Shown here: positions 23,001 to 53,222 of the stretch, piece by piece
How positions within the stretch are numbered: position 1 is the stretch's first letter
How the letters are laid out: each line of letters opens with the position of its first letter
Origin: a virus
Strand: one strand, 5' to 3'
Length of the DNA: 64,000 nucleotides
Virus record (IMG/VR): IMGVR_UViG_3300050343_000285
Coordinates: 96,001-160,000 of that record
Translations under genes and position numbers: made by a program
Notes under the pieces: generated by a model
The model's database searches: none
The model's input: only the letters and a program-made list of their open reading frames with translations
Told to the model about the DNA's origin: nothing

Positions 23001-26000
23001 GTCCTGAAAAATCTTCTCCTGGGAATGTACAGCATGAACAATCTATAGGCGTTGTATATATTGGCGTTGGTGTTGCATTATCCGAATAAGAATAATTAGA
23101 ATTACTGCTGTGAGCACAATCTTTATCTACCAAAAGATTATTGACATGAGAAAGTTGATTATCTATAGTCCCAAAAAATCTTTCTAAATTAATAGTTACA
23201 ATAAAAAATCTCCAATCATTAGGTATATTACCTAAATCTGAACCAAATCCAGATAAAAACTTTCTATATCTAGAAGGAACATTTGAGGAGTCCACCTTCA
23301 AGATAGGAATATCATCCCAAGATTGAAAACCATGGGTAACAGACCAATTGTCTGCATCAACATAACAGCCTGTAGTGTCATTTCCTGTAAAACTATTGCC
23401 GTCAGGAGATAAATCAATACATTTTGTAACCATGTGTGCCATGCCATATACGTGATCAGAAGCTTGATTAGTTGCTATGGATATACCATATCTAGTAGCA
23501 TCGCATTTCCCTGGAGGGTCGTCATCATATAAAGCATTAAGACCAAAATCTGTTATAACTGATAAATCAACAGCCCATGCAATAGTAATACTATCATGAT
23601 CTTTAAATAGTCTAACGTAACGACTATCTTCTGAACAATTTTCAAATGGAGGTTCTGTTGCTGGTGTTGGTGTAGCAGGAGTAAGTTCTGTGGTGGCACA
23701 ACTTAATTGATATCGACTTAACAACGCATTCACATTAGTCTGTATTTCGTTAACATTTAATGCTTTGTCATATACTAAGAAAGGACCCAGTTCACCATCA
23801 TAAGCTCCGGCATAGTTAGTTGCTCGTCCTATATGTGATATAGTTAGGCTGTCTTCAAGTTCATTAGTTGTAGCTATAGCAGCATCTCTTCCATAGTCTG
23901 ATGTTTCTCCCAAAAGGAAACAATCTTTATAATGATAAGCTTTATTATTATCAAATACAATTGTGTAAACAGACCATTGATTACTATTAAAAGAAGTAGT
24001 AGGCCCGTTAAATGTATTTAGATTAACGTCTGTTTCACCTTTAACTTGATTACTATCTAATTGTATATATGATTTATTATGAGATCTTCCATATATGAAA
24101 TTACTAGGGTTAAAATTTCTAATAACAAAACTGATTGTGCTACCAGCTCTACTAAGCGTTAAATCATTTCCAGTTACAGTATTAATATCAAAATCTAAAC
24201 TTTGTGAAGATCCATTAAATGTTAAGTAACTAAAATCATTAGAGAATATAGGCCAGTTTATTAACTGTGCATCATATCTCTCACCAACAGCTTTACCGGG
24301 TGTTAGATCTAATAAATAATTACCATAAGCACTAGCGTTAGGATCATAAGATAGTGGATCTATAAAGCATTCTAAATCATCTGTTACTATACTAGGAAAA
24401 ATATATGGAGTTGGGGTTACTGTAGTGGGGGTTGTTGTTGTAGTTGGGGTTGTTGGTGTGACACAAGAATTAATATCTGGATATCGTCCTGTCTTCACAA
24501 TTTCATTATGGTTGTGTTTAATTTCAGCATCACTTAATGCTTTATCATACAGTAATATTGGACCAACCCTACCCTGAAAGCTGGTGCCTATCCGACTAAA
24601 GTAAAAATGACCTAATAGTTTATTAGCAACAGCATCAGAACCGGCTGCATTAATATTACATTCTGAATATCCATACCATGTTTCTTCACCTATAAATTCA
24701 CAATTTTTATAATATTTAACTATACCTTCTTTGCTTACAACAATAGTAATATTATACCATTTTTCTCTATCCATATCAAATTGTGGTTCATTAGTTACTC
24801 TACTACCATCATATAGATTCGTTGTGTAGAAAGCTGTTTGAAAATAATTTGGACTAAAAAGCAGACCCGATTGTGGATCTCTATAACTACAGCTGTCGTC
24901 ATAATCTTTACTTGACCCATCGGGATTAAATTTTCTTGCTATGTCATCGGTTGATCCTATCAAATAACCTCGTTTGTCACCAAAGAATCTAGATTCATAT
25001 TCTTGAACAGCAATTGAGCTATCATAGTTGGATGTGTCGAATAATATTCCACCATCATAAAATCTATAAACTACAAAATTTAATGTGCATCCACCAGCTG
25101 GATGGTAAATATCTCCGTGTATATTAACATCCGTAATCGGATTGTCTGCATACTCAGGTTGCTCACTTGGAAGTATAGATAAATCAATAGCTCTAGAAGA
25201 CTGTGGTATATCGATATGACCTCCCCATCCGGGTAGTTGAATATAACTATTATCTGAAGCATAGGAGGGTAGTGTCCAAGGAGGATCGTCATCACCTGTC
25301 GCAAAAGTGCTATCAAACTTACCATGATATCCATTACCACTCCAATCGTATATCTGATACTCAGATAGGTCTACACAATAATTTGTCTTAGTTCCTGTCG
25401 TATCAACAAGATCAAAACAATCTTCAAATGATGAAGTAGGGGTCGGAGTGGTAGTAGTATAATTTTCAAGGGGTCGGTTTCGCAAAGAATCAGGAGGTGG
25501 GTTTTGCGAAAGCTCAGGATCATAAAAAAGCGTAAGTCCATCTTTAATAGGATTAAATGAAACTGTGCTTTGATCAGTAGGGTTGGTAACTAAGTATAAT
25601 GAACTAAAACTACTAATATTAACAGATATCGTTTTATTTGCAAAGTTACGAACGTAATCTCCATGTTCGATAGTTGCATCTGTAATACCATACTCATCTT
25701 TGTGGAATATTTTAAGACTATCAAACTCTGATTTAGTTATATTGTTTTTTAAGTTAAATGTTACTATTACGCTACCTGAGAAATTTGCGGTAGCTGTAAG
25801 ATTTACAGCAGAGGCGCTGCCTATCAAATTGTATTCTGTGATTGGTTCAATGTCTGGCAAATCGTAATCGGTTTGTATTTCTAAGTCGCCAGAATTAGTA
25901 ATTTCATCAAAATTTAAGTCAATAGAATCAATGAAATAATCAGAATAAGAAAAATTAGCAGATACATCCGATCCTTTGTTTAATGTTGTATCTCTAGAAA

Positions 26001-27897
26001 TGCGTTGACTTACTATATAAAATAAACTAAATTCATCAACTTGTGCGGATATCTTTTTTGTTTCAAAATCACGAATATATGAACCACTATTAACTGTTAC
26101 GTCTGTAAGTTCTAAAGTATCTTCTTTTATACGAAATACTTTTAAGTTATTGAACTCTGCTTTGGTAATATTATTTTCTGTATCATCTATTGAGAAGTCT
26201 ATAATTGCATCTCCATCAAATGATATTGGTGTGTCAATGTCTATAGAATCAATAATGGCATCGTTAGCATAATCTGTAGCAAAATCTGTAGATGGTACAG
26301 TACTAACATCTAATAATGATAGTGATAATTCATTTAAGTCAATAATATTAGAGAAGGATAACCCCAAAGTAAGAAGCTTATTAGTTCCTATGCTAGGGGA
26401 TGTTGTAATTGAGAATGGAAATTGTGGATCAGGAGTCGCTGTAGTAACAATTTGATGAACAGTAGGTGTGGGTGGAGTTGGTGGAGTTGGTGGTGCTGGC
26501 GGAGTTGGTGGTGCTGGCGGAGTTGGTGGTGCTGGCGGAGTTGGTGGAGCTGGTGGTGCTGGTGGAGTTGGTGATGCTGGAGGTGTTGGTGCTGTTGGTG
26601 CTGTTGGTGTTGTTGGTGGAGTTGGAGGAGTTGGAGGAGTTGGAGGTGAAGGTGGTAGAGTTGGAGGTATTGGTGGCGTTGGAGGTGAAGGTGGTAGAGT
26701 TGGAGGTATTGGTGGCGTTGGTGGCGTTGGTGGCGTTGGAGGTGCTGGAGGAGTTGGCGGTGGTGGTGGTGGTGGTAGAGGTGGTGGTAGAGGCGGTGGT
26801 GGAGGCGGTGGAGTAGGAGTAATTTCTGGTTGAGTTTCTGGTTGAGTTTCTTGTGTTGATTGAGTTTCCGGTTGAGTTTCTTGTGTTGATTGAGTTTCCG
26901 GTTGAGTTTCTTGTGTTGATTGAGTTTGTGCTGGTGGTGTTGGGGGTGCTGGTGGTGGGGGTGGAGGCGGTGGTGGCGGCGGTGGAGTAGCTTCTTGGCA
27001 AGGAGGGAACGCTCCAGAGAAGCCAACTCTATACCTACAATTTTCTGTATCCCATAGTTCGGAAGTCTGATTATCTAATTTATGAATATTAGCTACTTCA
27101 TCAAAACACCATTCAAATATAGATTTACTTGCAGTACAAGAAGGTTGTTTATCTGGACCAATATTGTAATTACAATATTCATGACTACTAATCACAAAAG
27201 CATTATATGGACCAATCGTGGTCCAATTAAAATCATTAACATCTTCATCTTCTGCACAAGGGCAGCATATATCCTCTGGTGGTGGAGTAGTTGTTGCTGG
27301 TGGGGGTCCGGGTGGTGGTGGAGGCTGACTAGGGCACTCAGGTAGATATCTAACAAAAAATGGTACCCAATCACACTGTGATATACTAAAAGCGTACGAA
27401 GTAAGACCTAATTGTGATCCGTCAGGACACATACTAGGTTGACCTACAGGAGGCAAGCTTGTGGGCCCCATGCATTTTGGATCTATAGGTGATTGAGGAA
27501 TATTAGGTGGTGGAAAAGGAGGTAGGGGTGTAGGAGTGGTGCTTGTACTTTGAGCCTCAAAAACATCCTCCTTAGCAATTCTATAGTTAACTATATCTAT
27601 TTTATTTTTGGGCACTTCACCAAAAGCAGATTCAAAAATTAAATTTTCATTTGCGTATATTCTATAATAATTTTCATAAGGATAAAATCCCGTATTATTA
27701 TATAGTACAGTAAAGACTTCGTGATCAGAATCTACAGTAAAGTCATAAGATTTAGCATTAACACTACCTATAAAATCATCATGATTTAAAGAAATTTTAT
27801 CTAATAATTTCTCTTCTCCAGCAATAATAGTTAGGCTATTATTATTCCAACCATCACCTTTAGTATCATATATAATAATAGAATATTTATATTTCAT
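20074..27897 (-). CDS. Giant 2607-aa modular virion fibre/adhesin-like protein (DxxGDGW domain, Pro-rich stalk, tandem beta domain x2, two LamG-like domains, Thr linkers, Cys-rich C-terminus)
   Basis: Uninterrupted ORF; GLTLFYDP..DWSGNGYHG..GPILLYDKALS and FIDP..DLT..FNGSS..GPFLVYDKAL concanavalin-A/LamG signatures; no signal peptide. Confidence 0.75.
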   Translation of the reverse strand: MKYKYSIIIYDTKGDGWNNNSLTIIAGEEKLLDKISLNHDDFIGSVNAKSYDFTVDSDHEVFTVLYNNTGFYPYENYYRIYANENLIFESAFGEVPKNKIDIVNYRIAKEDVFEAQSTSTTPTPLPPFPPPNIPQSPIDPKCMGPTSLPPVGQPSMCPDGSQLGLTSYAFSISQCDWVPFFVRYLPECPSQPPPPPGPPPATTTPPPEDICCPCAEDEDVNDFNWTTIGPYNAFVISSHEYCNYNIGPDKQPSCTASKSIFEWCFDEVANIHKLDNQTSELWDTENCRYRVGFSGAFPPCQEATPPPPPPPPPPPPAPPTPPAQTQSTQETQPETQSTQETQPETQSTQETQPETQPEITPTPPPPPPPLPPPLPPPPPPPTPPAPPTPPTPPTPPIPPTLPPSPPTPPIPPTLPPSPPTPPTPPTPPTTPTAPTAPTPPASPTPPAPPAPPTPPAPPTPPAPPTPPAPPTPPTPPTPTVHQIVTTATPDPQFPFSITTSPSIGTNKLLTLGLSFSNIIDLNELSLSLLDVSTVPSTDFATDYANDAIIDSIDIDTPISFDGDAIIDFSIDDTENNITKAEFNNLKVFRIKEDTLELTDVTVNSGSYIRDFETKKISAQVDEFSLFYIVSQRISRDTTLNKGSDVSANFSYSDYFIDSIDLNFDEITNSGDLEIQTDYDLPDIEPITEYNLIGSASAVNLTATANFSGSVIVTFNLKNNITKSEFDSLKIFHKDEYGITDATIEHGDYVRNFANKTISVNISSFSSLYLVTNPTDQSTVSFNPIKDGLTLFYDPELSQNPPPDSLRNRPLENYTTTTPTPTSSFEDCFDLVDTTGTKTNYCVDLSEYQIYDWSGNGYHGKFDSTFATGDDDPPWTLPSYASDNSYIQLPGWGGHIDIPQSSRAIDLSILPSEQPEYADNPITDVNIHGDIYHPAGGCTLNFVVYRFYDGGILFDTSNYDSSIAVQEYESRFFGDKRGYLIGSTDDIARKFNPDGSSKDYDDSCSYRDPQSGLLFSPNYFQTAFYTTNLYDGSRVTNEPQFDMDREKWYNITIVVSKEGIVKYYKNCEFIGEETWYGYSECNINAAGSDAVANKLLGHFYFSRIGTSFQGRVGPILLYDKALSDAEIKHNHNEIVKTGRYPDINSCVTPTTPTTTTTPTTVTPTPYIFPSIVTDDLECFIDPLSYDPNASAYGNYLLDLTPGKAVGERYDAQLINWPIFSNDFSYLTFNGSSQSLDFDINTVTGNDLTLSRAGSTISFVIRNFNPSNFIYGRSHNKSYIQLDSNQVKGETDVNLNTFNGPTTSFNSNQWSVYTIVFDNNKAYHYKDCFLLGETSDYGRDAAIATTNELEDSLTISHIGRATNYAGAYDGELGPFLVYDKALNVNEIQTNVNALLSRYQLSCATTELTPATPTPATEPPFENCSEDSRYVRLFKDHDSITIAWAVDLSVITDFGLNALYDDDPPGKCDATRYGISIATNQASDHVYGMAHMVTKCIDLSPDGNSFTGNDTTGCYVDADNWSVTHGFQSWDDIPILKVDSSNVPSRYRKFLSGFGSDLGNIPNDWRFFIVTINLERFFGTIDNQLSHVNNLLVDKDCAHSSNSNYSYSDNATPTPIYTTPIDCSCCTFPGEDFSGRNYIVKIFSDKGNSSIKKDIYEQTIYDSDGPINQVDPLRFSNDKSYNPSGTIRDTKGLSSTKQSPTAHILDSVKFKAETYKTSGSATNQLRTKIIYQIAEPIINLSSVILENHWTTILGDSGEFAELQWQSSFGSDWESSDDLPGSNNLLNFDVASLVGEYRNGQNIYTQTITYIVNEMFILDPTYNFRAVTTYNAPNPIGPQKTSSAQIYPEVIYLAIQEIDGCCNEVNSIKYVQYIDNEYAAKYWTEEIFSTHNTTAYIDDPKYYIYIKQFQNYGGSYEDQNFCARAWLVDASDLPADAIIYYKATLDSSSSQDSYVSCEFCLTDHMLHSSTCPPTPTTTTTTILTSTPTPTPTPTPTPLLFADTTTKTTTTTTVTTTATTPTPGPNPCYHRMYLQPCVEPTPTPNPITYWVENITLKDPNENATSPTPVTVNACEYIAILLYDPTTPSASYSNLYDYVGFYAIDSNSCVAMYRNDVISKNQLDTLDPSTNVIIENLIVEAQHYDEGVCLQKHCPQTTTTTTTTFPVIETTTTTTTPTTTTTTATTTPTTKTPTTPTTPTTGTQETARITTETTATVGDIAITTPIIFPTFTATPLLCCATIITPEAIDEEPIPPNYFAGCIEQPSDANQTDLESVFVDDYTHCQISDSIGLENQSYCSEFEAIRQCEADYYIDICGGAIEEQHYGNNVGYYARCIDDETGATDQCWPLSRMYCPPCDQCDGNGDPWAFLGCITDTDRNRGRIGTGQDGTCPFFGSLDGNTQCSVFELIGSCLKDKCENDEGCDDCSFNPAGFYALCKRGTVDTCVALGSYSCCTTLDTKTGCGDGESFEPGHVILPLSSEGAQNPSAIKLKIPLTAASSANKNSYTYSGGRIRVPSSTNNLLSSNSDITVLSVNGTSPFRTGFQIDKLIVELDNLTGLLTCTFDAALFYCGPNYDTNSNDLYLCPPETFKADIDGGGKCINCGDIDTVVIGG
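26460..27000 (-). repeat. In-frame tandem repeats: 18-bp PTPPAP-type units, poly-Pro and three 30-bp QSTQETQPET units
   Basis: Direct sequence: ggtgctggcggagttggt-type units and tgattgagtttccggttgagtttcttgtgt repeats. Confidence 0.9.
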
Positions 27898-28892: not shown

Positions 28893-29601
28893 ATTTTGTA
28901 GTAATTTCTATTGAATGATTTGCTATATCTAAATTTAATGGATGTTGTAATATTTGTGTGTCTGTAAATTGTGGGCGGTGTTCTGAACAATCAATCCTAT
29001 TGAATTCATCGTGAGTTAATTTTTCATGATATGATGTAGACATAAAATCTAAATCAAATACATCATTATGCTCTATGTTTTTTTCAGTTATAGAAACCAT
29101 TAAGATTGTTTTATTACGCAAAAAATAAAGATAAGCATAAGCTGTATATTCGTCTGTAGTATTGCTAGAGCACCAAATTTGTGAAAACCCAGTCCATTTA
29201 TTAAATAAAAATTCTTTATCTTTAATTAAACATTTAATATTAGGTAATTTTGTTATATTAGTAAATTCTTGACATAAACTATTAACAGTAGTTATATCAG
29301 GATAATTATCTTGCAATTCTATGTCTTTTGATGGTGGTATTAATATATTTTTTATAAAGCTATCTTGTATTAAATAATCATGATCAATAGACCAATTAGT
29401 ATTGAAGCTTAATGGAGTGTGCTGGCTGTCTGTATATATTTTGAGAATATCTGAATTTTTATCCTGTGTAGTTAAAAAAACTATTTTATTATAGCGATTA
29501 TTACTAAGTTGATAGGAAAAATTTTTCTTACAGATATTTGATCTATTATCATGTTTGTATAAATATAAATTATTATTAGTATAGTTAATAGAAAAGTACA
29601 T
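28885..29601 (-). CDS. Hypothetical protein
   Basis: 238-aa ORF, ATGA-type overlap with next gene. Confidence 0.55.
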   Translation of the reverse strand: MYFSINYTNNNLYLYKHDNRSNICKKNFSYQLSNNRYNKIVFLTTQDKNSDILKIYTDSQHTPLSFNTNWSIDHDYLIQDSFIKNILIPPSKDIELQDNYPDITTVNSLCQEFTNITKLPNIKCLIKDKEFLFNKWTGFSQIWCSSNTTDEYTAYAYLYFLRNKTILMVSITEKNIEHNDVFDLDFMSTSYHEKLTHDEFNRIDCSEHRPQFTDTQILQHPLNLDIANHSIEITTKYE

Positions 29602-29816
29602 TAAATTAATTTATCAATATATTTCAAGGAGCTGAAGTCTGTTATGTTTTTATATATAATTGGATTTCTAGAAGGATCGTATTGTATTATCTTATGATCT
29701 ATATTTATAATAATATTATTTTGATTGATGTCTATCGGATGCTGTACTTTATTATCATCTGAGTTAATATAAAAATTAATTTTATACATAATATCTAGAT
29801 TATCATTCGCATTCAT
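29601..29816 (-). CDS. Small hypothetical protein
   Basis: 71-aa ORF in operon context. Confidence 0.45.
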   Translation of the reverse strand: MNANDNLDIMYKINFYINSDDNKVQHPIDINQNNIIINIDHKIIQYDPSRNPIIYKNITDFSSLKYIDKLI

Positions 29817-32800
29817 TCTCTGTTTGTAACCATTCTAGGGCTTCGTATTCTGTATCAGCTATTTCTATAGTTAAACCAAATGGGTGTGGAGAACATTCTT
29901 CATCAGTAGGTGTTTCTAGTATATATTTAGGACTGCTAATATTAATATAGCAATATTTATCATATAGGCACCATTTATTTTCATTGTATATAGATTTTTC
30001 TTGTAAGCACGGTTCTATACTGCAGGTGTTATTGCAGCAATATCCGGGTCTTTTGATAACTTTGATGGTATATTGATGATAACAATCATTGTCTTTAGAG
30101 TACGGTACATTTTGATTTATATTAAATTGAGCTTCTTCTTCATCTGTATATGGACCATCTTCATAAATTTTATTATGGCACCCATCTGTATAGTTTATGT
30201 AATATATTTGACAATGTGAATTGTTATAGCAATATTGGTTTGAAAATTCTGTCTTTTGATTTTCAAAATTTTGTACAGCTCCGGTGGTAGCAGCGTCTGT
30301 GGTCACAGGAGTATCATCTGTGCCCGGAGTGTCAGTACTGCTTACTATTTTACATACGCCCTCTACACAGCCATATCCAGCTGGACAGCAGATGCCCTCA
30401 CAACAAACATGCCCTGCTTTGCAACAATTGCCTCCACAGCAATAGTAAGTCATATCTGGGCAGCAAACTCCATTGCAACAGTTTTTCTGATTATCGCAGC
30501 AAACACCCCCACAACAACGCTGCAAAGCATTACAGCATACATCATTACAGCAATCTTGTGGGTATGGACAACAAACATCATTAGGCTTAACGCCACAACA
30601 TCTACTATTAGTAGTGCCAGCACAACAAGATCCTGTTCCGTTTTGACAATCTCCACAATAATCATCAAATATATCTGAACAACAAACTGGAGCTCCCACA
30701 GGATTATAGCATACAAAATGGAATCCAATAGGGCATGGGTCTTGAGTTGGAGGAGGCGGTGGAGTCGGTGGAGGCGGTGGAGGTGGAGGCGGCGGAGGTG
30801 GAGGTGGTGGAGGTGGTGGAGGTGGTGGAGGTGGTGGAGGTGTTGGAGGTGGTGGTGGAGGTGGTGGAGGTGTTGGAGGCGCTGGAGGCGTTGGGGGTGC
30901 TGGAGGCGTTGGGGGTGCTGGTGGAGTTGGAGGTGCTGGTGGAGTTGGAGGTGCTGGTGGAGTTGGAGGTGCTGGTGGAGTTGGAGGTGCTGGTGGAGTT
31001 GGAGGTGCTGGAGGCGTTGGGGGTGCTGGAGGCGTTGGAGGTGCTGGTGGAGTTGGAGGTGCTGGTGGAGTTGGAGGTGCTGGTGGAGTTGGAGGTGCTG
31101 GTGGAGTTGGAGGTGGTGGCGGAGTTGGAGGTGGTGGAGGTGGTGGAGGTGGTGGAGGTGGTGGAGGTGCTGGTGGAGTTGGAGGTGCTGGTGGCGTTGG
31201 AGGTGCTGGTGGAGTTGGAGGTGGTGGCGGAGTTGGAGGTGGTGGAGGTGGTGGAGGTGGTGGAGGTGGTGGGGGTGGAGGTGGTGGCGGAGTTGGAGGT
31301 GGTGGCGGAGTTGGAGGAGGCGGTGGAGTCGGTGGAGGTGGTGGAGGTGGAGGCGGCGGAGGTGGTGGGGGTGGCGGCGGAGGTGCTGGTGGAGTTGGAG
31401 GTGCTGGTGGCGTTGGAGGTGCTGGTGGCGTTGGAGGTGCTGGTGGAGTTGGAGGTGCTGGTGGCGTTGGAGGTGCTGGTGGAGTTGGAGGTGCTGGTGG
31501 AGTTGGAGGTGCTGGTGGCGTTGGAGGTGCTGGTGGAGTTGGAGGTGCTGGAGGTGTTGGTGGTGGTGGAGGTGGTGGAGGTGGTGGAGGTGCTGGTGGT
31601 GTTGGAGGTGCTGGAGGTGTTGGTGGTGCTGGAGGTGTTGGTGGTGCTGGAGGAGTTGGTGGTGCTGGTGGAGTTGGAGGTGGTGGAGGTGGTGGAGGTG
31701 CTGGTGGCGTTGGAGGTGCTGGTGGCGTTGGAGGTGCTGGTGGCGTTGGAGGTGCTGGAGGTGTTGGTGGTGCTGGAGGAGTTGGTGGTGGTGGAGGTGG
31801 TGGAGGTGCTGGTGGCGTTGGAGGTGCTGGTGGCGTTGGAGTTGCTGGTGGCGTTGGAGGTGTTGGAGGTGTTGGTGGTGCTGGAGGTGTTGGTGGTGCT
31901 GGAGGTGTTGGTGGTGCTGGTGGAGTTGGAGGTGCTGGTGGCGTTGGAGGTGCTGGAGGAGTTGGAGTTGCTGGTGGAGTTGGAGGTGCTGGTGGTGTTG
32001 GAGGTGCTGGAGGTGTTGGTGGTGGAGTTGGAGTTGGAGGAGCTGATGGTGTTGGTGGTGGAGTTGGAGGAGCCGATGGTGTTGGTGGTGGAGTTGGAGG
32101 AGCTGATGGTGTTGGTGGTGGAGTTGGAGGAGCCGATGGTGTTGGTGGTGGAGTTGGAGTTGGAGGAGCTGATGGTGTTGGTGGTGGAGTTGGAGTTTCT
32201 TTTGTTAAAGTTTCTGTAGGAGGAGTCTTTGTTAAAGTTTCTGTAGGAGGAGTCTTTGTTAAAGTTTCTGTAGGAGTCTCTGTTAAGGTTTCTGTAGGAG
32301 TCTCTGTTAAGGTTTCTGTAGGAGTCTCTGTTAAGGTTCCTGTAGCAGGACTCTTCGTTAATGTTTCTGTAGGAGTCTCTGTTAAGGTTTCTGTAGGAGT
32401 CTCTGTTAAGGTTCCTGTAGGAGTCTCTGTTAAGGTTCCTGTAGCAGGACTCTTCGTTAATGTTTCTGTAGGAATCTCTGTTAAGGTTTCTGTAGGAGTC
32501 TCTGTTAAGGTTTCTGTAGGAGTCTCTGTTAAGGTTTCTGTAGGAGTCTCTGTTAAGGTTCCTGTAGGAGTCTCTGTTAAGGTTCCTGTAGCAGGACTCT
32601 TCGTTAATGTTTCTGTAGGAGTCTCTGTTAAGGTTTCTGTAGGAGTCTCTGTAGTTCTTGTTTTTGTAGGAGTTGTTTCTATCGTTGTAGTTGATACAAT
32701 CGTGGTTATCGTTGTTGTTATAGTGGGACAAGTAGTTACTAGGATAGGGGTAGCATCAGTAAATTCTCGTGGGTTTTGAGTTGGTGCGGGTGGTGTTGGA

Positions 32801-34918
32801 GGTGCGGGTGGCGTTGGAGGCTCCGGAGGTGTTGGTGGTGCTGGAGGTGCTGGAGGTGCTGGTGGCGTTGGAGGTGCTGGAGGTGTTGGTGGTGCTGGAG
32901 GTGTTGGTGGTGCTGGAGGAGTTGGTGGTGGTGGTGGTGGAGGTGGTGGAGGTGGTGGAGGTGGTGGAGGTGGTGGAGGTGGTGGAGGTGGAGGTGGTGG
33001 AGGTGCTGGTGGCGTTGGAGGTGCTGGTGGCGTTGGAGGTGCTGGAGGTGTTGGTGGTGCTGGAGGAGTTGGTGGCGGTGGAGGTGGAGGTGGTGGAGGT
33101 GGTGGAGGTGGTGGAGGTGCTGGTGGCGTTGGAGGTGCTGGAGGTGTTGGTGGTGCTGGAGGTGTTGGTGGTGCTGGAGGAGTTGGTGGTGGTGGTGGTG
33201 GAGGTGGAGGTGGTGGAGGTGGTGGAGGTGGTGGAGGTGGTGGAGGTGCTGGTGGCGTTGGAGGTGCTGGAGGTGTTGGAGGTGCTGGAGGAGTTGGTGG
33301 TGCTGGTGGAGTTGGAGGTGGTGGAGGTGGTGGAGGTGCTGGTGGCGTTGGAGGTGCTGGTGGCGTTGGAGGTGCTGGTGGCGTTGGAGGTGCTGGTGGC
33401 GTTGGAGGTGCTGGAGGTGTTGGTGGTGCTGGAGGAGTTGGTGGTGGTGGAGGTGGTGGAGGTGCTGGTGGCGTTGGAGGTGCTGGTGGCGTTGGAGGTG
33501 CTGGAGGTGTTGGAGGTGCTGGAGGTGTTGGTGGCGCTGGAGGAGTTGGTGGCGCTGGAGGAGTCGGTGGCGCTGGAGGTGTTGGTGTTGCTGGAGGAGT
33601 CGGTGGCGCTGGAGGTGTTGGTGTTGCTGGAGGAGTCGGTGGCGCTGGAGGTGTTGGTGTTGCTGGAGGAGTCGGTGGCGCTGGAGGTGTTGGTGTTGCT
33701 GGAGGAGTTGGTGGTACTGATGGAGTTGGAGGTGCTGACGGAGTTGGAGGTGCTGACGGAGTTGGAGGTGCTGATGGAGTGACTTCTGTTATTAAGCTTT
33801 CTGTAGCAGGACTCTTCGTTAAGGCTTCTGTAGGAGTCTCTGTTAAGGTTTCTGTAGCAGGACTCTTCGTTAAGGCTTCTGTAGGAGTCTCTGTTAAGGT
33901 TTCTGTAGCAGGACTCTTCGTTAATGTTTCTGTAGGAGTCTCTGTTAAGGTTTCTGTAGGAGTCTCTGTTAAGGTTTCTGTAGGAGTAGTTTTGGTAGGG
34001 GTTTCTGTAGGAGTAGTTTTGGTAGGGGTTTCTGTTAAGGTTTCTGTAGGTGTTGTTTCTGTAACGGTAGTTACTGTATCAGTCGTTTTTGTAGGTGTCG
34101 TTTCTGTAACTGTAGTTACTGTATCAGTCGTTTTTGTAGGTGTTGTCGGAGTAGTTGTAGTACCTGTCGGCGGCGTGGTAGTTAGTGTAGTTTCTGTAGG
34201 TGTTGTATCCGTAGGTGTTGTTGGGGTAGTTGTAGTTACTGTCGGCGTTGTATCCGTAGGTGTCGTTGGGGTAGTTGTAGTTACTGTCGGCGTTGTATCC
34301 GTAGGTGTCGTTGGGGTAGTTGTAGTTACTGTCGGTGTTGTTGTGGTTGGTGTTGTTGTGGTTGGAGTAGTTTCTGTTAGTGTTGTTGTGGTTGGTGTTG
34401 TTGTGGTTGGAGTAGTTTCTGTTAGTGTTGTTGTGGTTGGTGTTGTTGTGGTTGGAGTAGTTTCTGTTAGTGTTGTTGTAGTTGGTGTTGTTGTAGTTGG
34501 TGTTGTTGTAGTTGGTGTTGTTGTAGTTGGTGTTGTTGTAGTTGGTGTTGTTGTAGTTGGTGTTGTTGTAGTTGGTGTTGTTGTAGTTGGTGTTGTTGTA
34601 GTTGGTGTTGTTGTAGTTGGTGTTGTTGTAGTTGGTGTTGTTGTAGTTGGTGTTGTTGTGGTTGGTGTAGTAGTTGTAGTCGTAGTTGTAGTTGGTGTGT
34701 TGTGGTGGTGTAGTAGTTGTAGTCGTAGTTGTAGTTGGTGTAGTAGTTGTAGTCGTAGTTGTAGTTGGTGTAGTAGTTGTAGTCGTAGTTGTAGTTGTTG
34801 TGGTTGTATCACAGCAACATAATCTTAGATTGTCTGGTTTGGCATGTTTAAATTTTGTTAATGCTTCATGACCGAATTTTAATATACCGCCACGAATAAT
34901 ATCTCGAAATAAAGACAT
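29803..34918 (-). CDS. Giant (~1700-aa) mucin/extensin-like Thr/Pro repeat protein with Cys-rich ends (frameshift near 34700)
   Basis: True start probably 34918 ([14 protein letters not shown]...[10 protein letters not shown]); missing A residues at ~34700 shift into the 1669-aa frame; [19 protein letters not shown] and poly-Pro blocks; C-terminal CCxxxCC repeats. Confidence 0.8.
30740..32190 (-). repeat. Pro-rich tandem repeat block 2 ([12 protein letters not shown], poly-Pro)
   Basis: Near-continuous ggtgctggtggagttgga 18-bp units and (ggt/gga)n runs on the plus strand. Confidence 0.95.
32190..32650 (-). repeat. 24-bp TETLTETP tandem repeat block 2
   Basis: Repeated tctgttaaggtttctgtaggagtc units. 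Confidence 0.95.
32775..33780 (-). repeat. Pro-rich tandem repeat block 1
   Basis: [12 protein letters not shown] units and a run of more than 20 Pro codons at ~32923-33003. Confidence 0.95.
33780..34050 (-). repeat. [17 protein letters not shown] repeat block 1
   Basis: Same 24-bp unit family as 32190-32650. Confidence 0.9.
34050..34810 (-). repeat. Thr-rich repeats (15-bp PTTTT units and TTTTP variants)
   Basis: Tandem gttggtgttgttgta units. Confidence 0.95.
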
Positions 34919-35704: not shown

Positions 35705-36421
35705 TTATTGTATGTGTTTTTTAGTTATTTGCCAAAAATTTTCGCTATTAATAGGTTCATATCTTATATTCTTATCTATACAAAATTTATTTAAACCTAA
35801 TCTAATACCTGGCCACCCCGGATTATTGAGATCATCACCAAACATAATACCATTATTTTGTAAAATTGACCAAGCATCATTCAGGTCATTATATGTACTC
35901 ACAAGGCCATTATCACCATCTACGTATATGAGATCAGCTGAAATATCATGCATGTCTAACCAGCTGCAACCGTGATGAAATGTATTACATAATGGGATTA
36001 TGGTATCTTCTAGTTTCTCGTGTAGAACGTTTGCTAAAAAATGATAATAAATCGTGGGTTGCCCATGAATCGACATAAGACGTCTTGCTGGATCTTCATC
36101 ATGTAGTCCTATGAACTCTAAAGAACCAAGCCATGTATCAATACAAATAATTTTTGTATCTAAATTATGTTTTTTAATTATATGTCCCATAGCTATAGCT
36201 GAAGCACCAAGCCAAGATCCAAGCTCTACTATTACAGATGGCTTCAGGGTTGTTATGTATTCTTCATATAAAATTGGATCAGTATTCCAACCTATAATTT
36301 TATGCTGGTATTTTTTATAGTCAAAATTTTTGTATATGTTATATCCATGTAGTAATTTCATATAATCATGCATTGTCTTTTCCTTTATGGCAATTAAATA
36401 TATAAAACCATAACCTTTCAC
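35705..36421 (-). CDS. Class I SAM-dependent methyltransferase (Methyltransf_24-like)
   Basis: VELGSWLGAS, CIDTW, DLIYVDG, GIMFGDD. Confidence 0.8.
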   Translation of the reverse strand: MKGYGFIYLIAIKEKTMHDYMKLLHGYNIYKNFDYKKYQHKIIGWNTDPILYEEYITTLKPSVIVELGSWLGASAIAMGHIIKKHNLDTKIICIDTWLGSLEFIGLHDEDPARRLMSIHGQPTIYYHFLANVLHEKLEDTIIPLCNTFHHGCSWLDMHDISADLIYVDGDNGLVSTYNDLNDAWSILQNNGIMFGDDLNNPGWPGIRLGLNKFCIDKNIRYEPINSENFWQITKKHIQ

Positions 36422-37016
36422 AAAAATGACCAGCTTCAGGGTTTATATCACCAAGTTCTTTATCTATAATATTAAGATAAAATATTTTATCCCTACTTAA
36501 TATACATGTTTTTGATACACCAAAATTTGCGCCTATATATATTTTATTATCATATGGCAAAACAGTTGAACTTATATATTCTCTCATGAAAGTAAAACAA
36601 TTATATTGTGATGGTTTACACAAGCTATTGGCCCAATATGATATCTTACCGGTTAACATCTCATAATATATACTAGCAACCATATAATTTGGAGTATGGC
36701 TATAGTTGACTGTTAAGTTATCTATCCAAGATATTATCTCTCTTATACCAACATGTGGAGTTCCTTGTAAAAAAATCACACCATCAGATAAATTATTATA
36801 ATTTTCGTAACAAAACCTTAAGTATGTTTCAGATTCTCTACCTATATTAGGTCTATAATTATGTATAATTTTTGGATTTAATTGTTTTATTTTTTTATCG
36901 TTTATCTTGTTAGGTTCACCCTTACTGTATACAAAAATTTTATTAATTTTATTGGATTTTATCTTTTTTATCCAAGTAATATCTTCATTATAATGGGCGA
37001 CGACTATATCTAGCAT
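36366..37016 (-). CDS. DUF3431-like putative glycosyltransferase
   Basis: LDIVVAHYNEDITW, NIGRESETYL, VIFLQG, HFCERLWFYIF. Confidence 0.7.
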   Translation of the reverse strand: MLDIVVAHYNEDITWIKKIKSNKINKIFVYSKGEPNKINDKKIKQLNPKIIHNYRPNIGRESETYLRFCYENYNNLSDGVIFLQGTPHVGIREIISWIDNLTVNYSHTPNYMVASIYYEMLTGKISYWANSLCKPSQYNCFTFMREYISSTVLPYDNKIYIGANFGVSKTCILSRDKIFYLNIIDKELGDINPEAGHFCERLWFYIFNCHKGKDNA

Positions 37017-37017
37017 T

Positions 37018-37686
37018 TTATTTTTGATAAATGTCGTTAAAAAAACCTTTAAGGCCAATTGGATTAATAACGTTTATTTTTATTTCAGGAGATTCTTCAT
37101 ATACGAACTCTTTAAATTTTGACCAACTATTTAATAAGTATGATAGATTACTTTTCCTATTATTTGGAACAAAATGCTTAGATCCGCTAATATCACATCC
37201 GACAATATTAATTTCTTTAAACCCACAGAACAAAGCAAACTGCATGCATATGAATATAGTAGACCCTCCACCATCTCCAAACCAAAATTTTTGAATATTT
37301 TTCCTAAAACAGCCTTGTTTCTTAAGTATAGAAAAAGGACCTTGACAATCATACCATAAAGCATTAGAGTCTATAGCTATTTGTTGTGAGCAGCCAAAAC
37401 TTGGATCTTTTAAAAAAGTGCCCATAAATTTTTGCATTTTAGGCTTATAGGTAATAATTTTATTTTTAAGTTCTTTACTAGCCCACTTACAATCATTGAA
37501 AAAAAAGTAGTCGAAAATAAATTTTTCTAAAAATACACCACTATTACACCCTATATGAACAGCCTCATCTATCGGCTTATAGTCTAGTAATGTTTTTCCA
37601 GTGCCACAAACTACTGCAATATCATTTTTATGTTTATTTTCATATCCATAAAATGCATTCCAGTTTAATTTAGAGTATTCATGCAT
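37018..37686 (-). CDS. MptE/Maf (DUF115)-like protein, candidate nonulosonate transferase
   Basis: AVVCGTGKTL, IGCN, GSTIF..MQFALFCGFKEINIVGCD. Confidence 0.6.
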   Translation of the reverse strand: MHEYSKLNWNAFYGYENKHKNDIAVVCGTGKTLLDYKPIDEAVHIGCNSGVFLEKFIFDYFFFNDCKWASKELKNKIITYKPKMQKFMGTFLKDPSFGCSQQIAIDSNALWYDCQGPFSILKKQGCFRKNIQKFWFGDGGGSTIFICMQFALFCGFKEINIVGCDISGSKHFVPNNRKSNLSYLLNSWSKFKEFVYEESPEIKINVINPIGLKGFFNDIYQK

Positions 37687-37870: not shown

Positions 37871-38710
37871 TTAATTGAAAAGTTTTCTCCATTTAATTTG
37901 AGATTTATTTATTTTTATAGAGTTTTTTGGATATAATTTTATTGATTGGTGATCAATGCTTGATGTTTTTAACCACGGATATGGAAGATAAATCATTTTA
38001 TCATTTTTTTCGTTAGATAAAATTTTAGACCACCATGAGAAACTACTATTAGAAATAATACCATGTCTACATAAGTACATAATATAGAATTCTTGATATA
38101 CGTCAAGTTCTTCTACGAAAAAACATTTCTCTAGAAAAATATTATTTTTAATTGATTGAAACTCCTGCTTAATCTTTTGTATATTATCGCTAATAATAAA
38201 AAGATATTTAGGTTTAATTTTTTCTATAATATATTCAAAATAATTTATATCTAGAATGTCATAAAAGTTTTGCAAATTTTCATAATCACCTCTTCTAGCA
38301 TGAATGCAAGCAGTATCTTCTAAATTATTAGTTTTTATTTTATCTTTTATGTATTTAAAAGATTTATTAAGTATTATTTTATTTGGTCTTAATTCTTGTC
38401 TTATTTCTGGTAGTAATTTTTCATAGTAAGATAAGTTTTGAAAAAATCCTATAAGATTTATATCCTTTTGGTCTAAAATATTTGCATCAAAATTGAAAGC
38501 GTCTTTTTCTACATATTGATTACTGTCAAAAGTATCAGTTTTTTTATAACTCATTGAATTAGAATCGAAGAAATTTAAGAAATGACTATCAGGATTTACA
38601 AAAAATGAACTATCATGTAAAATAGAAAGAACTTTACATAGAGAATATTGAAAAATTTGATTACCAAACCTACCATAATTTCTATGACCTAAAGATGAAC
38701 AACTAATCAT
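37871..38710 (-). CDS. Alpha-1,2-fucosyltransferase (GT11)
   Basis: GRFGNQIFQY, GFFQN, HARRGDY, ISNSSFSWW. Confidence 0.88.
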   Translation of the reverse strand: MISCSSLGHRNYGRFGNQIFQYSLCKVLSILHDSSFFVNPDSHFLNFFDSNSMSYKKTDTFDSNQYVEKDAFNFDANILDQKDINLIGFFQNLSYYEKLLPEIRQELRPNKIILNKSFKYIKDKIKTNNLEDTACIHARRGDYENLQNFYDILDINYFEYIIEKIKPKYLFIISDNIQKIKQEFQSIKNNIFLEKCFFVEELDVYQEFYIMYLCRHGIISNSSFSWWSKILSNEKNDKMIYLPYPWLKTSSIDHQSIKLYPKNSIKINKSQIKWRKLFN

Positions 38711-39560
38711 TGAAAAATAAAACATGTCCTTCAGGTACGGCTGAAATAATTAAGTTTTTATCTTTATCGAAGATATATAAATTTTTAAACAATCCAGGCA
38801 TAGGATCTTGATTTAATCTCTGAGTAGAAACTTCTATATTTAATCCTGCATTTTTTATATGTTCTGTAACATCCTCATAGCAGCCATAATAAGCACTAAT
38901 AATTTCTATATTATTAATGTCTTTCATACGTTTTATTATATTGTTATTATTTTCCCTAACTCTATCTAAAAGGGTCATTTTATTCTGTAATCCAACTGTA
39001 TAATTAGCATGAAACATAATTAGCTCGTGACTAACTGTAAAATCTTGACCAGACCAATGTCTGTGTTGGAAAGAAATGTTTAAAAATCTATCAGATAGAA
39101 ATTTTGCATTTAATATTTTTATGTTCTTATTAATAGCTTCTTGATCACAGGCGTATAAGTCGTATTTTTCTTTAAGTAATTTAAAAAATGATTTAGTATT
39201 TTTATTAATTCTACATATAAAGAATCCGGCACAATATTCACGACCAACGCCTTCTTGAAAAGCAATATCATAATCACCAAGCTCTTTTATGCATTCCTTA
39301 ATAAATGGGCTATAAAACTCAATATCTACATCTGACCATATAAAAAATTCATCATCTGTATTTATTGCTTTATCATATATTTCTATCTTCTGACGCATGG
39401 ATTCTTTCCACCCGTCTGAATAATATTCCCCTGTACTGCAAACCTGTCTTTGTTTTTCTGATATTATTTCTGCTTCTGGTTCCAATTTCCTAATACTCTT
39501 CTCAAAATACTCATCATGTAAAAATTGATGAGACTTTGATACCATTGTGTATATTTTCAT
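38703..39560 (-). CDS. Nucleotide-diphospho-sugar transferase (GT77-like) with C-terminal lectin-like module
   Basis: WSDVDI, DIAFQ, CAGFF, DQEAIN, FHANY; C-terminal IISAYYG..DVT..DPMPGLFKNLYI. Confidence 0.7.
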   Translation of the reverse strand: MKIYTMVSKSHQFLHDEYFEKSIRKLEPEAEIISEKQRQVCSTGEYYSDGWKESMRQKIEIYDKAINTDDEFFIWSDVDIEFYSPFIKECIKELGDYDIAFQEGVGREYCAGFFICRINKNTKSFFKLLKEKYDLYACDQEAINKNIKILNAKFLSDRFLNISFQHRHWSGQDFTVSHELIMFHANYTVGLQNKMTLLDRVRENNNNIIKRMKDINNIEIISAYYGCYEDVTEHIKNAGLNIEVSTQRLNQDPMPGLFKNLYIFDKDKNLIISAVPEGHVLFFND

Positions 39561-40002: not shown

Positions 40003-40908
40003 TTAAATAATTGGATTTATTATTCCATACCCTTGATATTTCTTAGTTTTAAATTTTTCATTTTTTATATCAATAGCGTGTTTTTTTAGAATATCATATA
40101 ATGCTTTTTTATCTAACTTTTGATTGTATTTTTGCTTATAATAAGACATATAAAGAGCAGCTACACCAGCAGCGAAAGGATTACTCATGCTAGTACCACT
40201 CATTAAAGCATATTTACCACCTGGTATTATACTCATTATATTATGACCTGGAGCTAAAAAGTCAAGACTAGGACCACTGCATGTAAAATTAGTTCTATTT
40301 AGATTTTCATCTATAGCGCCTATACTAATTGTTTCTGGATATTTGGCAGGAAACATAATGTCTACACTGGGTCCAGAATTTCCTGCTGCACAGAATATTA
40401 TACAACCTTTATCAGAAGCTTTCTTAACAGCTCTTTTTACTAAAGGAGAAGAACCTCTTGAACCAAGTGACATAGTGATTATATCAACATTTTTTTTAGC
40501 AGCATAATTTACAGCCTTAGCAACATTAGTTAAATTTCCACTACCATTTTTATCTAAAGCTTTTAGCGCCAATATCTTTGCGTCGGGTGCTACACCAACC
40601 ATTCCTTTATTATTGTCGCAAGCTGCTATAGTACCAGCTACGTGAGATCCATGACTATTGTCGTCCATTGCGTCTTCTGTGTCGTTTATAAAATTATATT
40701 GACCATCTATATTACTTTTTATATCTGGGTGGTTAACATCGCAACCTGTGTCTATAACAGCCACTCTGATACCACGACCAGTACTCTTAATCCATTGCTT
40801 ATCTACATTGAATTTTGTAATCTCCCATCCTTTCATTTGAGGATCATAAGGAGAAAGACCAAAAAAATCTTCAGTTTTGAAAGGTAATAAAGAAACATTA
40901 TCTCGCAT
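40003..40908 (-). CDS. Subtilisin-family (S8) serine protease
   Basis: VAVIDTG, HGSHVAGTI, AAGN and SGTSMSNPFAAG catalytic motifs. Confidence 0.93.
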   Translation of the reverse strand: MRDNVSLLPFKTEDFFGLSPYDPQMKGWEITKFNVDKQWIKSTGRGIRVAVIDTGCDVNHPDIKSNIDGQYNFINDTEDAMDDNSHGSHVAGTIAACDNNKGMVGVAPDAKILALKALDKNGSGNLTNVAKAVNYAAKKNVDIITMSLGSRGSSPLVKRAVKKASDKGCIIFCAAGNSGPSVDIMFPAKYPETISIGAIDENLNRTNFTCSGPSLDFLAPGHNIMSIIPGGKYALMSGTSMSNPFAAGVAALYMSYYKQKYNQKLDKKALYDILKKHAIDIKNEKFKTKKYQGYGIINPII

Positions 40909-53207: not shown

Positions 53208-53222
53208 GACTATGTATCCTCC

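What the first reader, a model, noticed from the sequence alone, without database searches (positions are those of the whole stretch)
29803..34918. ~1700-aa mucin-plus-extensin chimera built as a duplicated super-repeat between Cys-rich caps
Architecture: short basic head ending CCC; Thr block (PTTTT)n; then twice [TETLTETP block, [12 protein letters not shown], poly-Pro]; then a C-terminal CCxxxxCC array and a Cys/Tyr-rich domain. About 1350 residues are almost only P, T, A, E, L, S and K. Polyproline-II rods of this length could span hundreds of nm. The TETL blocks add acidic spacers. A protein so similar to eukaryotic hydroxyproline-rich glycoproteins and mucins is unexpected in a bacteriophage.
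Basis: partly seen in the sequence, partly recalled or inferred. Interest (0 to 1): 0.78.

Follow-up and report, generated by a model that had tools for sequence, protein, structure and literature searches.

The report
Giant proline/threonine stalk protein of a phage
An uncultured 195-kb marine phage encodes a roughly 1,700-residue protein that is almost all proline and threonine, held between a small conserved head and a cysteine-rich tail; it sits among sugar-adding enzyme genes and is probably a sugar-coated fibre, though nothing has been measured.

Summary
It runs: a 36-aa basic head ending CCC; a Thr block; two copies of [[16 protein letters not shown], poly-Pro]; a CC-x(3-6)-CC ladder; and a Cys/Tyr domain.

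It is not one open frame in this record. The head (ATG 34918) and the 1,669-codon body (34812-29803) are one base out of register. The swap lies in a 22-nt stretch at 34690-34711. A relative assembled twice reads head and Thr block in one frame. This record also carries frame breaks in at least four other genes, four of the five sites examined lying at homopolymers. The break is therefore most likely a sequencing error.

Both caps are conserved in other uncultured phages. Their contigs all stop inside the repeat, so this is a real gene family with a fast-changing stalk. The exact repeat length here is unverified.

The likeness to mucins and extensins is one of composition only. There is no signal peptide, no SPPPP motif and no Tyr in the stalk, and no Pfam family matches. 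The CC ladder looks weakly granulin-like. The terminal domain matches no known fold.

The gene lies in an island with GT60, a prolyl-hydroxylase-type oxygenase, GT77, GT11, GT2, nonulosonic-acid and Galf genes. My best reading is a glycosylated 0.3-0.4 µm fibre. The scan has noted similar phage Thr/Pro proteins beside GT60 genes in at least 17 other genomes.

The parts
34811..34918 (-). N-terminal head, 36 aa (MSLFRD...[13 protein letters not shown]): basic, with no hydrophobic signal-peptide core. The ATG lies 11 nt after the stop of the upstream gene.
   Evidence: It is 86% identical to the head in P0015 and 32/37 identical to L015/L017, while flanking proteins are only 44-54% identical.
34712..34810 (-). 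Asp plus the first Thr runs (T13-P-T9-P-T9), read in the head frame.
   Evidence: The relative L015 continues CCCD + T19... in the same frame.
34690..34711 (-). Frame-break junction (ACACCACCACAACACACCAACT). Its first 13 nt look like the canonical 15-nt TPTTT unit ACACCAACCACAACA lacking two A's. A net +1/-2 shift moves the head frame into the body frame.
   Evidence: and the frame arithmetic. No slippery heptamer is visible. Relatives have no break.
34051..34701 (-). Thr block in the body frame: (PTTTT)n, then [25 protein letters not shown] and [14 protein letters not shown] variants.
32764..34050 (-). Super-repeat 1 (main-ORF residues 255-683): [13 protein letters not shown] block, [18 protein letters not shown], and poly-Pro runs up to 27.
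32671..32763 (-). Short non-repeat hinge (residues 684-714) between the two super-repeats, rich in Thr/Ile and holding the stalk's only Cys.
30745..32670 (-). Super-repeat 2 (residues 715-1356): the same order of blocks as super-repeat 1, but longer.
   Evidence: About 83% DNA identity to super-repeat 1 over ~1.2 kb. The peptide TPPAPP is written in 16 different synonymous DNA versions, and the longest exact repeat in the gene is 175 nt.
30349..30744 (-). CC ladder (132 aa): PCPIGF..VCY start, then CC-x(3-6)-CC units ending ..[20 protein letters not shown]. It is predicted to be a stack of beta-hairpins.
   Evidence: 28 invariant columns across 4 phages, and the number of CC units differs between them; model pLDDT 82; only 2 of 48,161 chains reach Z>=2, the best being zebrafish granulin 6cku (Z 3.2, 47 residues aligned, 38% identity). 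No Pfam match.
30238..30348 (-). Thr/Asp-rich flexible linker between the CC ladder and the terminal domain.
   Evidence: pLDDT is below 50 for cap residues 137-169.
29806..30237 (-). Terminal Cys/Tyr domain (~145 aa) with motifs [18 protein letters not shown] and HPFG, ending ..ENECE. The stop codon is at 29803-29805.
   Evidence: HMMER hits P0005-P0011, with E down to 6e-26. Alignments A1/A2. pLDDT 74-90. No Pfam or PDB sequence match and no fold match above Z 4.5.

Best explanation
This is one gene for a ~1,700-residue tripartite protein. The break in this record is most likely a local sequencing or assembly indel inside the Thr repeat.

The three parts are:
1. A 36-aa, highly conserved, basic head ending CCC.
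2. A ~1,320-residue stalk with no globular structure, running Thr-rich, then acidic TETL, then PTPPAP, then poly-Pro, with the last three blocks duplicated.
3. A disulfide-type CC ladder followed by a conserved ~145-aa Cys/Tyr domain.

Inferred mechanism:
- The protein is made in the host cytoplasm, since it has no signal peptide.
- Its Thr residues, and possibly hydroxylated Pro residues, are O-glycosylated by the soluble enzymes of the surrounding island. These are a GT60 polypeptide GlcNAc-transferase type, a prolyl-hydroxylase-type oxygenase, GT77, GT11 and GT2 transferases, and nonulosonic-acid and UDP-Galf supply genes.
- Sugars and prolines keep the stalk extended, giving about 0.3-0.4 µm.
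- The conserved head is the attachment end, fixed to the virion. The Cys-rich end is the distal tip. It would oxidise and stiffen once released into sea water, and bind a surface.

What is shown: the gene architecture, the conserved caps in related phages, the fast-changing stalk and the glycosylation gene context. What is inferred: glycosylation, hydroxylation, virion attachment, polarity and binding.
For: Architecture and composition.

Frame break:
- Head to Thr block is in one frame for 154-194 aa in two assemblies of a relative.
- There are other frame breaks in this record. Two genes are split relative to intact ORFs of relative L010, and both sites have A/T homopolymers.
- GT60 is matched in three separate pieces, two of which read through stop codons.
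- The 2OG oxygenase is in three frames, with A6 and T7 runs in the break zones.

Family:
- The C-terminal cap is conserved in L008, L009, L010 and P0007-P0011. In each of the three loci, Pro/Thr repeats of a different unit precede it and the contig ends inside the repeat.
- The downstream genes are syntenic.
- The head is 86% identical between phages whose neighbouring proteins are 44-54% identical.

Coding and context:
- Codons are the genome's own A/T-ending kind, with many synonymous versions of each unit.
- L020 confirms the 3' junction at 100% identity.
- Glycosylation context.
- The gene is packed in a same-strand run, 11 nt after the upstream stop.
Against: - No expression, proteome, glycan or microscopy data exist.
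- The gene lies on the strand of the replication and metabolism genes, not on the strand of the terminase and tail module. This does not favour a late virion protein.
- The junction has no long homopolymer, unlike four of the other five break sites examined, and repairing it needs two 1-nt gaps or one 2-nt gap.
- No independent assembly of this phage's own 5' end was found.
- No phage EF-P, tRNA-Pro or tRNA-Thr is present to help translate 661 Pro codons.
- No phage thiol oxidase was found.
- Hydroxyproline was reported absent from chlorovirus PBCV-1 particles despite that virus having a prolyl 4-hydroxylase (unpublished analysis cited as reference 162 of PMC7019647). The presence of an enzyme does not prove the modification.
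Confidence: 0.5

Rival explanations
1. The protein is real and glycosylated but is not part of the particle. It would be released at lysis, or deposited on the infected cell, as a mucus-like or gel-forming polymer. Such a polymer could stick progeny or cells to particles, or block other phages.
For: The gene is on the strand shared with early/middle-type genes and enzymes, away from the structural module. There is no homology to any PHROG structural family. Many Cys could cross-link molecules into a network after release.
Against: The extreme conservation of a 36-aa head fits a specific docking interface better than a free polymer. A defined tip domain at the far end suggests a polar fibre. 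No export signal is present.
Confidence: 0.2
2. The frame break is genuine. In this genome the gene would then be a pseudogene, or be expressed only after slippage or +1 recoding, which could act as an on/off switch for the fibre.
For: The junction is not at a long homopolymer. Repeat tracts do mutate by slippage: the relative differs by one Thr codon between two samples, T19 against T20. An in-frame AGA-T sits exactly where the +1 frame opens (34825), and ARAGORN reports a phage tRNA with a four-base anticodon ATCT.
Against: Reading AGAT as four bases would replace the conserved CCC-D-polyThr with a Gln/Leu segment, which relatives do not show. The two 2OG-oxygenase break zones have no in-frame AGAT and sit at A6/T7 runs. 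At least one other break is of the -1 type. The 4.9 kb downstream of the break stays open and keeps a conserved cap, which argues against an old pseudogene. No slippery site is present.
Confidence: 0.12
3. The gene is real, but the number and order of repeat units are an assembly product. This includes the apparent duplication into two super-repeats. The true stalk would be substantially shorter or differently arranged.
For: Every short-read contig of relatives, and of this phage itself (L020), stops inside the repeat. The record is error-prone. Exact repeats reach 175 nt.
Against: The two super-repeats are only ~83% identical and differ in length and unit order. Units carry many synonymous variants. 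A unique hinge separates the two super-repeats. Homopolymer-type errors suggest long reads, which can span 4 kb; that last point is an inference.
Confidence: 0.15

Closest known systems
Mucin PTS domains and 'adhesin on a glycosylated stalk' proteins (animal mucins, yeast Flo/Als adhesins, bacterial serine-rich repeat proteins); from general knowledge
   Same: A long Pro/Thr-rich tandem-repeat stalk with no globular structure, flanked by Cys-rich or globular ends. The repeat unit and number change fast while the ends are kept. Glycosyltransferase genes are at hand.
   Different: There is no signal peptide or secretory route. There are no VWD, C8 or cystine-knot domains (no Pfam match). Pro at 50% of the stalk, with runs of 27, is far beyond mucins. 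It is encoded by a phage.
Plant extensins / hydroxyproline-rich glycoproteins (PMC3355594, PMC4769139)
   Same: Very high Pro content with an expected polyproline-II rod. A prolyl-hydroxylase-type 2OG oxygenase and a GT77-type transferase are encoded nearby.
   Different: There is no Ser-Pro(3-5) repeat, no Tyr in the stalk and so no Tyr cross-link motifs, and no signal peptide. Hydroxyproline is untested.
Cytoplasmic Skp1 prolyl-hydroxylation/glycosylation pathway of protists (P4H PhyA, GT60 Gnt1, GT77 AgtA; PMC3515798, PMC6939170)
   Same: The same enzyme families (P4H-type oxygenase, GT60, GT77, a fucosyltransferase-type GT) act as soluble cytoplasmic enzymes. That is the only compartment open to a phage protein.
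   Different: Skp1 carries one modified Pro. Here the putative acceptor has hundreds of Thr and Pro. No Skp1 homologue is involved, and enzyme specificities are unknown.
Mycobacteriophage virion glycosylation (Freeman et al. 2023, PMC10527164, as cited in PMC12619734)
   Same: Phage-encoded glycosyltransferases modify the phage's own structural proteins in the cytoplasm.
   Different: There, short C-terminal extensions of capsid and tail-tube subunits are glycosylated. Here the candidate is a dedicated 1,700-residue acceptor protein beside a much larger sugar-synthesis island.
Glycosylated fibrils of Mimivirus/Megavirinae (PMC8456856, PMC10117803) and chlorovirus PBCV-1 prolyl 4-hydroxylase with Pro-rich viral proteins (Eriksson 1999, cited in PMC7019647)
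   Same: Virus-encoded sugar synthesis clusters, including bacterial-type sugars, that decorate surface fibres. PBCV-1 is a virus-encoded P4H precedent acting on Pro-rich repeats.
   Different: Those are viruses of eukaryotes. The Mimivirus fibril protein is a GMC oxidoreductase, not a low-complexity stalk. There is no sequence relation.
Granulin module (Pfam PF00396; zebrafish granulin AaE, PDB 6cku)
   Same: Paired-Cys ladder folding as stacked beta-hairpins. The ending ..CCPAGYGC....C resembles the granulin C-terminal half. Granulin is the top structural match.
   Different: Z is only 3.2. There is no Pfam hit at E<=10. The Cys spacing differs, the number of CC units varies, and there is no evidence of common descent.

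Membership tests
Mucin (PTS-domain glycoprotein) | Long tandem repeats rich in Pro, Thr and Ser | tested here: met
   Stalk of 1,319 aa, of which 97.2% is P/T/A/E/L/S/K; arrays confirmed by Tandem Repeats Finder.
Mucin (PTS-domain glycoprotein) | Dense O-glycosylation of the repeats | not testable with these tools
   Only context is available: GT60, GT2, GT11 and GT77 genes in the island.
Mucin (PTS-domain glycoprotein) | Secretory signal peptide and VWD/C8/cystine-knot flanks | tested here: not met
   The head has no hydrophobic core. No Pfam family matches either cap.
Extensin / HRGP | Ser-Pro(3-5) repeats | tested here: not met
   The units are [12 protein letters not shown] and poly-Pro. 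No SPPP appears in the translation.
Extensin / HRGP | Tyr cross-linking motifs in the repeats | tested here: not met
   No Tyr in the 1,319-aa stalk.
Extensin / HRGP | 4-hydroxyproline with O-arabinosides or galactosides | not testable with these tools
   A 2OG-FeII_Oxy_3 gene is present (34.8 bits). Its best solved relatives are prolyl 3- and 4-hydroxylases. A GT77-type gene is present.
Granulin (PF00396) | Match to the family profile (12-Cys motif) | tested here: not met
   No Pfam match at E<=10 and no PDB sequence match.
Granulin (PF00396) | Stacked beta-hairpin fold | tested here: inconclusive
   The model is all beta-hairpin with pLDDT 82. 6cku is the best of 48,161 chains, but Z is 3.2, rmsd 3.3 Å and 47 residues aligned. 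Foldseek found nothing at E<=0.001.
Phage virion structural protein (fibre or decoration) | Homology to a known structural family, or a position in the structural module | tested here: not met
   No PHROG match for the last 298 residues (most of the cap), the only part scanned. The gene is on the opposite strand and about 60 kb from the terminase/tail block.
Phage virion structural protein (fibre or decoration) | Presence in purified particles | not testable with these tools
   The phage is uncultured, and the terminase search found only a distant cultured match (29.5% identity over 35% of the protein, Bacillus phage Stills).

The most novel reading that the evidence does not exclude
A bacteriophage builds, entirely in the bacterial cytoplasm, a hydroxyproline- and threonine-O-glycosylated mucin/extensin-like fibre 0.3-0.4 µm long. 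It would use its own prolyl hydroxylase, GT60 initiating transferase and chain-extending enzymes. The fibre would be anchored to the particle by a 36-aa CCC head and would carry a new disulfide-rich tip domain: a 'hairy', sugar-coated marine phage. This would be the first hydroxyproline-rich glycoprotein of a prokaryotic virus.
Probability: 0.25. Interest if true: 0.85.

Novelty: new variant of a known kind. Interest (0 to 1): 0.6.

Why it matters
If the protein is made and glycosylated, some large marine phages invest about 5 kb of coding DNA plus tens of kb of sugar-pathway genes in a soluble, cytoplasmic mucin-type or hydroxyproline-type protein glycosylation system. Such chemistry is thought of as eukaryotic.

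It would give a compact, Golgi-free route to mucin-like polymers. It would bear on how phages stick to hosts, particles and marine gels. It would also add two undescribed Cys-rich modules: an expandable CC ladder and a ~145-aa terminal domain.

Practically, public gene calls miss it, because short-read contigs break inside the repeat. On the one such contig of this phage only the last 216 aa are on record. This class of gene is therefore systematically under-annotated.

Tried and rejected
- **Giant virus origin.** No NCLDV capsid match was found, although that search had no positive control. A weak large-terminase match and a tape-measure-like match point to a tailed phage.
- **Close relatives by exact peptide scan.** Scans with the cap and with both flanking genes in viral contigs found none. 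A degenerate DNA pattern was needed instead.
- **Prokaryote genomes.** The cap pattern gave one out-of-frame chance hit in a Methanobacteriaceae MAG. Rejected.
- **Homology of the CC ladder to the phage's other Cys-rich proteins** (genome 18-25 kb). Raw tblastn hits disappear under composition-corrected BLASTP, E>=0.18. Other self-hits are the reverse strand of Thr codons read as Cys.
- **Pfam, PHROGs, PDB sequence search, ESM Atlas and Foldseek on the cap.** PHROGs covered only the last 298 residues and the ESM Atlas only the terminal 175. Nothing significant.
- **Quadruplet (AGAT) decoding by the odd tRNA as the cause of the +1 breaks.** Rejected for the two 2OG-oxygenase break zones, which have no in-frame AGAT and sit at A6/T7 runs. 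It is also at odds with the conserved CCC-polyThr reading.
- **Phage helpers for poly-Pro translation or disulfide formation.** No EF-P, tRNA-Pro, tRNA-Thr or Erv1 was found; there is one thioredoxin.
- **T4-type late promoter.** TATAAATA lies 26 nt before the GT77 gene that heads the run. Only five such boxes lie in upstream gaps genome-wide, which is too weak to use.
- **Promoter/terminator scan around the gene.** Uninformative.
- **An independent copy of this phage's own 5' end.** Not found.
- **P0015.** This is the head plus T10 plus the start of a Cys/Tyr-like segment, 106 aa in all. It could be a short paralogue or a collapsed assembly.
Full report
**What is there**

All genes around the finding run on the minus strand of an AT-rich record. 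The main ORF is 34812-29803, 1,669 codons, with a GTG as its first possible start. Its first 37 residues ([14 protein letters not shown]...) are simply the Thr repeat read out of frame.

After about 70 residues that frame degenerates into an Asn/Tyr reading of the same repeat.

The two frames swap in a 22-nt stretch, 34690-34711 (ACACCACCACAACACACCAACT). Its first 13 nt look like the canonical 15-nt unit ACACCAACCACAACA with two A's missing. That gives a net -2, equivalent to a +1 shift. So 29803-34918 (5,116 nt, not divisible by 3) is not one open frame in this record.

Bridged, the product would be about 1,702 residues:
- a head of 36 aa;
- a stalk of about 1,320 aa (P 661, T 402, A 104, E 52; 97.2% P/T/A/E/L/S/K; no Tyr; one Cys; net acidic);
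- a cap of 313 aa with 46 Cys and 23 Tyr.

A unique 31-aa hinge separates the two copies.

**Is it more than chance or artefact?**

The repeats are open in several frames on both strands, so openness alone proves nothing. The Pro/Thr frame is fixed by three points:
- It continues without a stop into a non-repetitive cap that is conserved elsewhere.
- Its codons are the genome's own A/T-ending ones (CCA/CCT, ACA/ACT, GCA).
- Units occur in many synonymous versions: 16 DNA spellings of TPPAPP.

The super-repeats are about 83% identical at the DNA level, and the longest exact repeat in the gene is 175 nt. They are therefore not a verbatim assembler duplication.

A separate 1,578-nt JGI contig (L020) is identical at all 1,568 aligned bases. 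It covers the end of the Pro array, the cap and the downstream DNA. The total copy number remains unverified.

**The frame break**

A relative (IMGVR_UViG_3300014720_003607) was assembled independently from two sister samples (L015/L018 and L017). It reads [37 protein letters not shown] + T19 or T20 + further Thr/Pro units in one frame, for 154-194 aa, up to the contig end.

This record is broken elsewhere too:
- Two genes that are intact in relative L010 align here in two frames. Both sites have A/T homopolymers.
- The GT60 gene is matched in three separate pieces, two of which read through stop codons.
- The 2OG oxygenase is in three frames, with break zones containing A6 and T7 runs.

I therefore read the break as a local record error. 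A genuine lesion is not excluded, because this junction has no long homopolymer and I found no second assembly of this phage's own 5' end.

I also tested whether an odd phage tRNA with a four-base anticodon (ATCT) could explain +1 breaks through AGAT codons. An in-frame AGA-T does sit where the +1 frame opens (34825). Using it would erase the conserved CCC-polyThr. The two 2OG-oxygenase break zones have no in-frame AGAT, and at least one other break is of the -1 type. Rejected.

**What genome**

The window is bases 96,001-160,000 of a 194,787-bp, 32.8% GC IMG/VR virus record that CheckV rates complete. The record has a weak match to a large terminase family and a tape-measure-like protein on the plus strand at 20-64 kb. 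The terminase search found only a distant cultured match, Bacillus phage Stills at 29.5% identity over 35% of the protein. The finding lies on the other strand, in the long run that also holds the metabolic genes.

**Relatives**

A full HMMER scan of 1.8 billion representatives with the cap found ten proteins at E<=0.001. The best is the phage's own cap fragment (P0004), and the weakest is an unrelated Cys-rich protein that matches only the CC ladder. The other eight cover the last ~150 residues, with E down to 6e-26.

Their contigs (L008, L009, L010) show the same layout: a Pro/Thr repeat of a different unit ([12 protein letters not shown] and others), then PCPIGF..VCY and a CC ladder, then a Thr linker, then the Cys/Tyr domain ending ..NEC(E). 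Every contig ends inside the repeat.

The downstream genes are syntenic. There is a small 62-75-aa ORF, then a 228-238-aa protein, then a 324-332-aa protein.

The head is 86% identical between phages whose neighbouring proteins are 44-54% identical. The cap is about 40-43% identical, like its neighbours. The number of CC units differs between phages.

The picture is two conserved ends and a stalk that keeps its composition but not its sequence.

**Folds**

AlphaFold models:
- Whole cap: pLDDT 72.6, with a disordered Thr linker.
- CC ladder alone: pLDDT 82.3, entirely beta-hairpins.

For the ladder, only 2 of 48,161 PDB representatives reached Z>=2. The best is zebrafish granulin AaE (6cku; Z 3.2, rmsd 3.3 Å, 47 residues aligned, 38% identity). 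Foldseek lists only disulfide-ladder ectodomains, all non-significant. Pfam Granulin does not match. I call it granulin-like in look only.

The terminal domain has no Pfam, PDB or Atlas match, and no fold match above Z 4.5.

**Context**

The gene starts 11 nt after the previous stop, inside a same-strand run of sugar genes (window coordinates):

| Gene | Position |
|---|---|
| Methyltransferase | 35708-36421 |
| DUF3431 | 36369-37058 |
| MptE-like | 37021-37686 |
| GT11 | 37874-38725 |
| GT77-type | 38706-39560 |
| Subtilase | 40006-40908 |
| Cytidylyltransferase | 43365-43997 |
| HAD + nucleotidyltransferase | 45679-47055 |
| UDP-GlcNAc 2-epimerase | 47058-48047 |
| GT2 | 48063-48797 |
| NeuB | 49867-51156 |
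| Prolyl-hydroxylase-type 2OG oxygenase | 52648-53222 |
| GT1-family (Glycos_transf_1) transferase | 55840-56826 |
| UDP-Galp mutase | 18973-20061 |
| GT60 | about 5506-6418 |

The best solved relatives of the oxygenase are prolyl 3-hydroxylase 1 (E 1.4e-6) and bacterial and viral P4Hs.

The downstream 2,607-aa neighbour (20077-27897) also carries PTPPAP arrays, Thr linkers and a Laminin_G_3 domain.

**Reading**

The enzymes lack any obvious export context, and the protein has no signal peptide. Any modification must therefore be cytoplasmic, as in mycobacteriophage virion glycosylation and the protist Skp1 Hyp-glycosylation pathway (P4H, GT60, GT77).

I consider a glycosylated, extended fibre with a docking head and a Cys-rich distal tip the best explanation (0.5). 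Virion location and polarity are inferences. The gene's strand and its distance from the structural module count against a classic late structural gene. A released, non-virion polymer is the main rival.

**Novelty**

I found no paper in the searchable library that pairs GT60 with phage or describes a phage mucin- or extensin-like giant. The library is incomplete.

The scan's own unchecked notes list similar Thr/Pro giants beside GT60 genes in at least 17 other phage genomes. The theme therefore recurs on other DNA.

What is particular here is the extreme proline content, the P4H-type enzyme, the CCC head and the two new Cys-rich modules.

Noticed in passing
window 20074-27897 (-): The 2,607-aa neighbour has [10 protein letters not shown] arrays, Thr linkers, a Laminin_G_3 domain and many Cys-bearing globular segments. 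It is absent from relative L010, where the 324-aa gene is followed directly by the 312-aa gene. Its N-terminus (..YDTKGDGWNNN..) resembles the C-terminal part of the 332-aa protein family upstream of it.
   Followed up: partly
window 29601-29789 (-): A small 62-aa ORF (MYKINFYINSDD...) lies directly after the giant gene. It overlaps the next gene's ATG by one base (TAATG). ORFs in the same position occur in L008 (71 aa) and L009 (75 aa). Function unknown.
   Followed up: partly
window ~13065-13080, ~10944-10990, 5506-6418, 52648-53222: Further frame breaks in this record, relative to intact ORFs of relatives or to Pfam models. The genes affected are a 366-aa homologue, a 215-aa homologue, GT60 and the 2OG oxygenase. 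Most are +1 type and lie at or near A/T homopolymers, so the record appears error-prone.
   Followed up: partly
L001:3941-4018 (-) = genome 3941-4018: ARAGORN calls a tRNA with a four-base anticodon (ATCT, 8-nt loop) near tRNA-Lys, tRNA-Ile(TAT) and tRNA-Arg(TCT). It could be a +1 frameshift-suppressor-like Arg tRNA or a prediction oddity. AGAT decoding did not explain the breaks I examined.
   Followed up: partly
L006:18420-18760 (-) = genome 178420-178760: A phage-encoded tmRNA with tag peptide ADTSVLALAA. It is interesting beside genes with 27-Pro runs that should stall ribosomes, given that no phage EF-P was found.
   Followed up: no
window 42285-42890 (-): A 202-aa protein matching Pfam Volactin (archaeal actin-like, E 1e-37) inside the glycosylation island. 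It covers only profile positions 50-222 of 321, so it may be truncated by another frame break.
   Followed up: no
window 40006-40908 (-): A subtilisin-type S8 protease (E 1e-56) in the same gene run. It is a possible processing enzyme.
   Followed up: no
L015:471-508 against L017:7454-7491: Two assemblies of the same relative differ by one Thr codon in the first poly-Thr run (T19 against T20). This would be in-frame length variation in natural populations.
   Followed up: no
P0015 (Logan SRR19514073, 2,174-nt contig): A 106-aa call joins the conserved head and T10 directly to a short Cys/Tyr-like segment, with oppositely oriented neighbours. It is either a short paralogue using the same head or a collapsed assembly. 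No DNA was available.
   Followed up: partly
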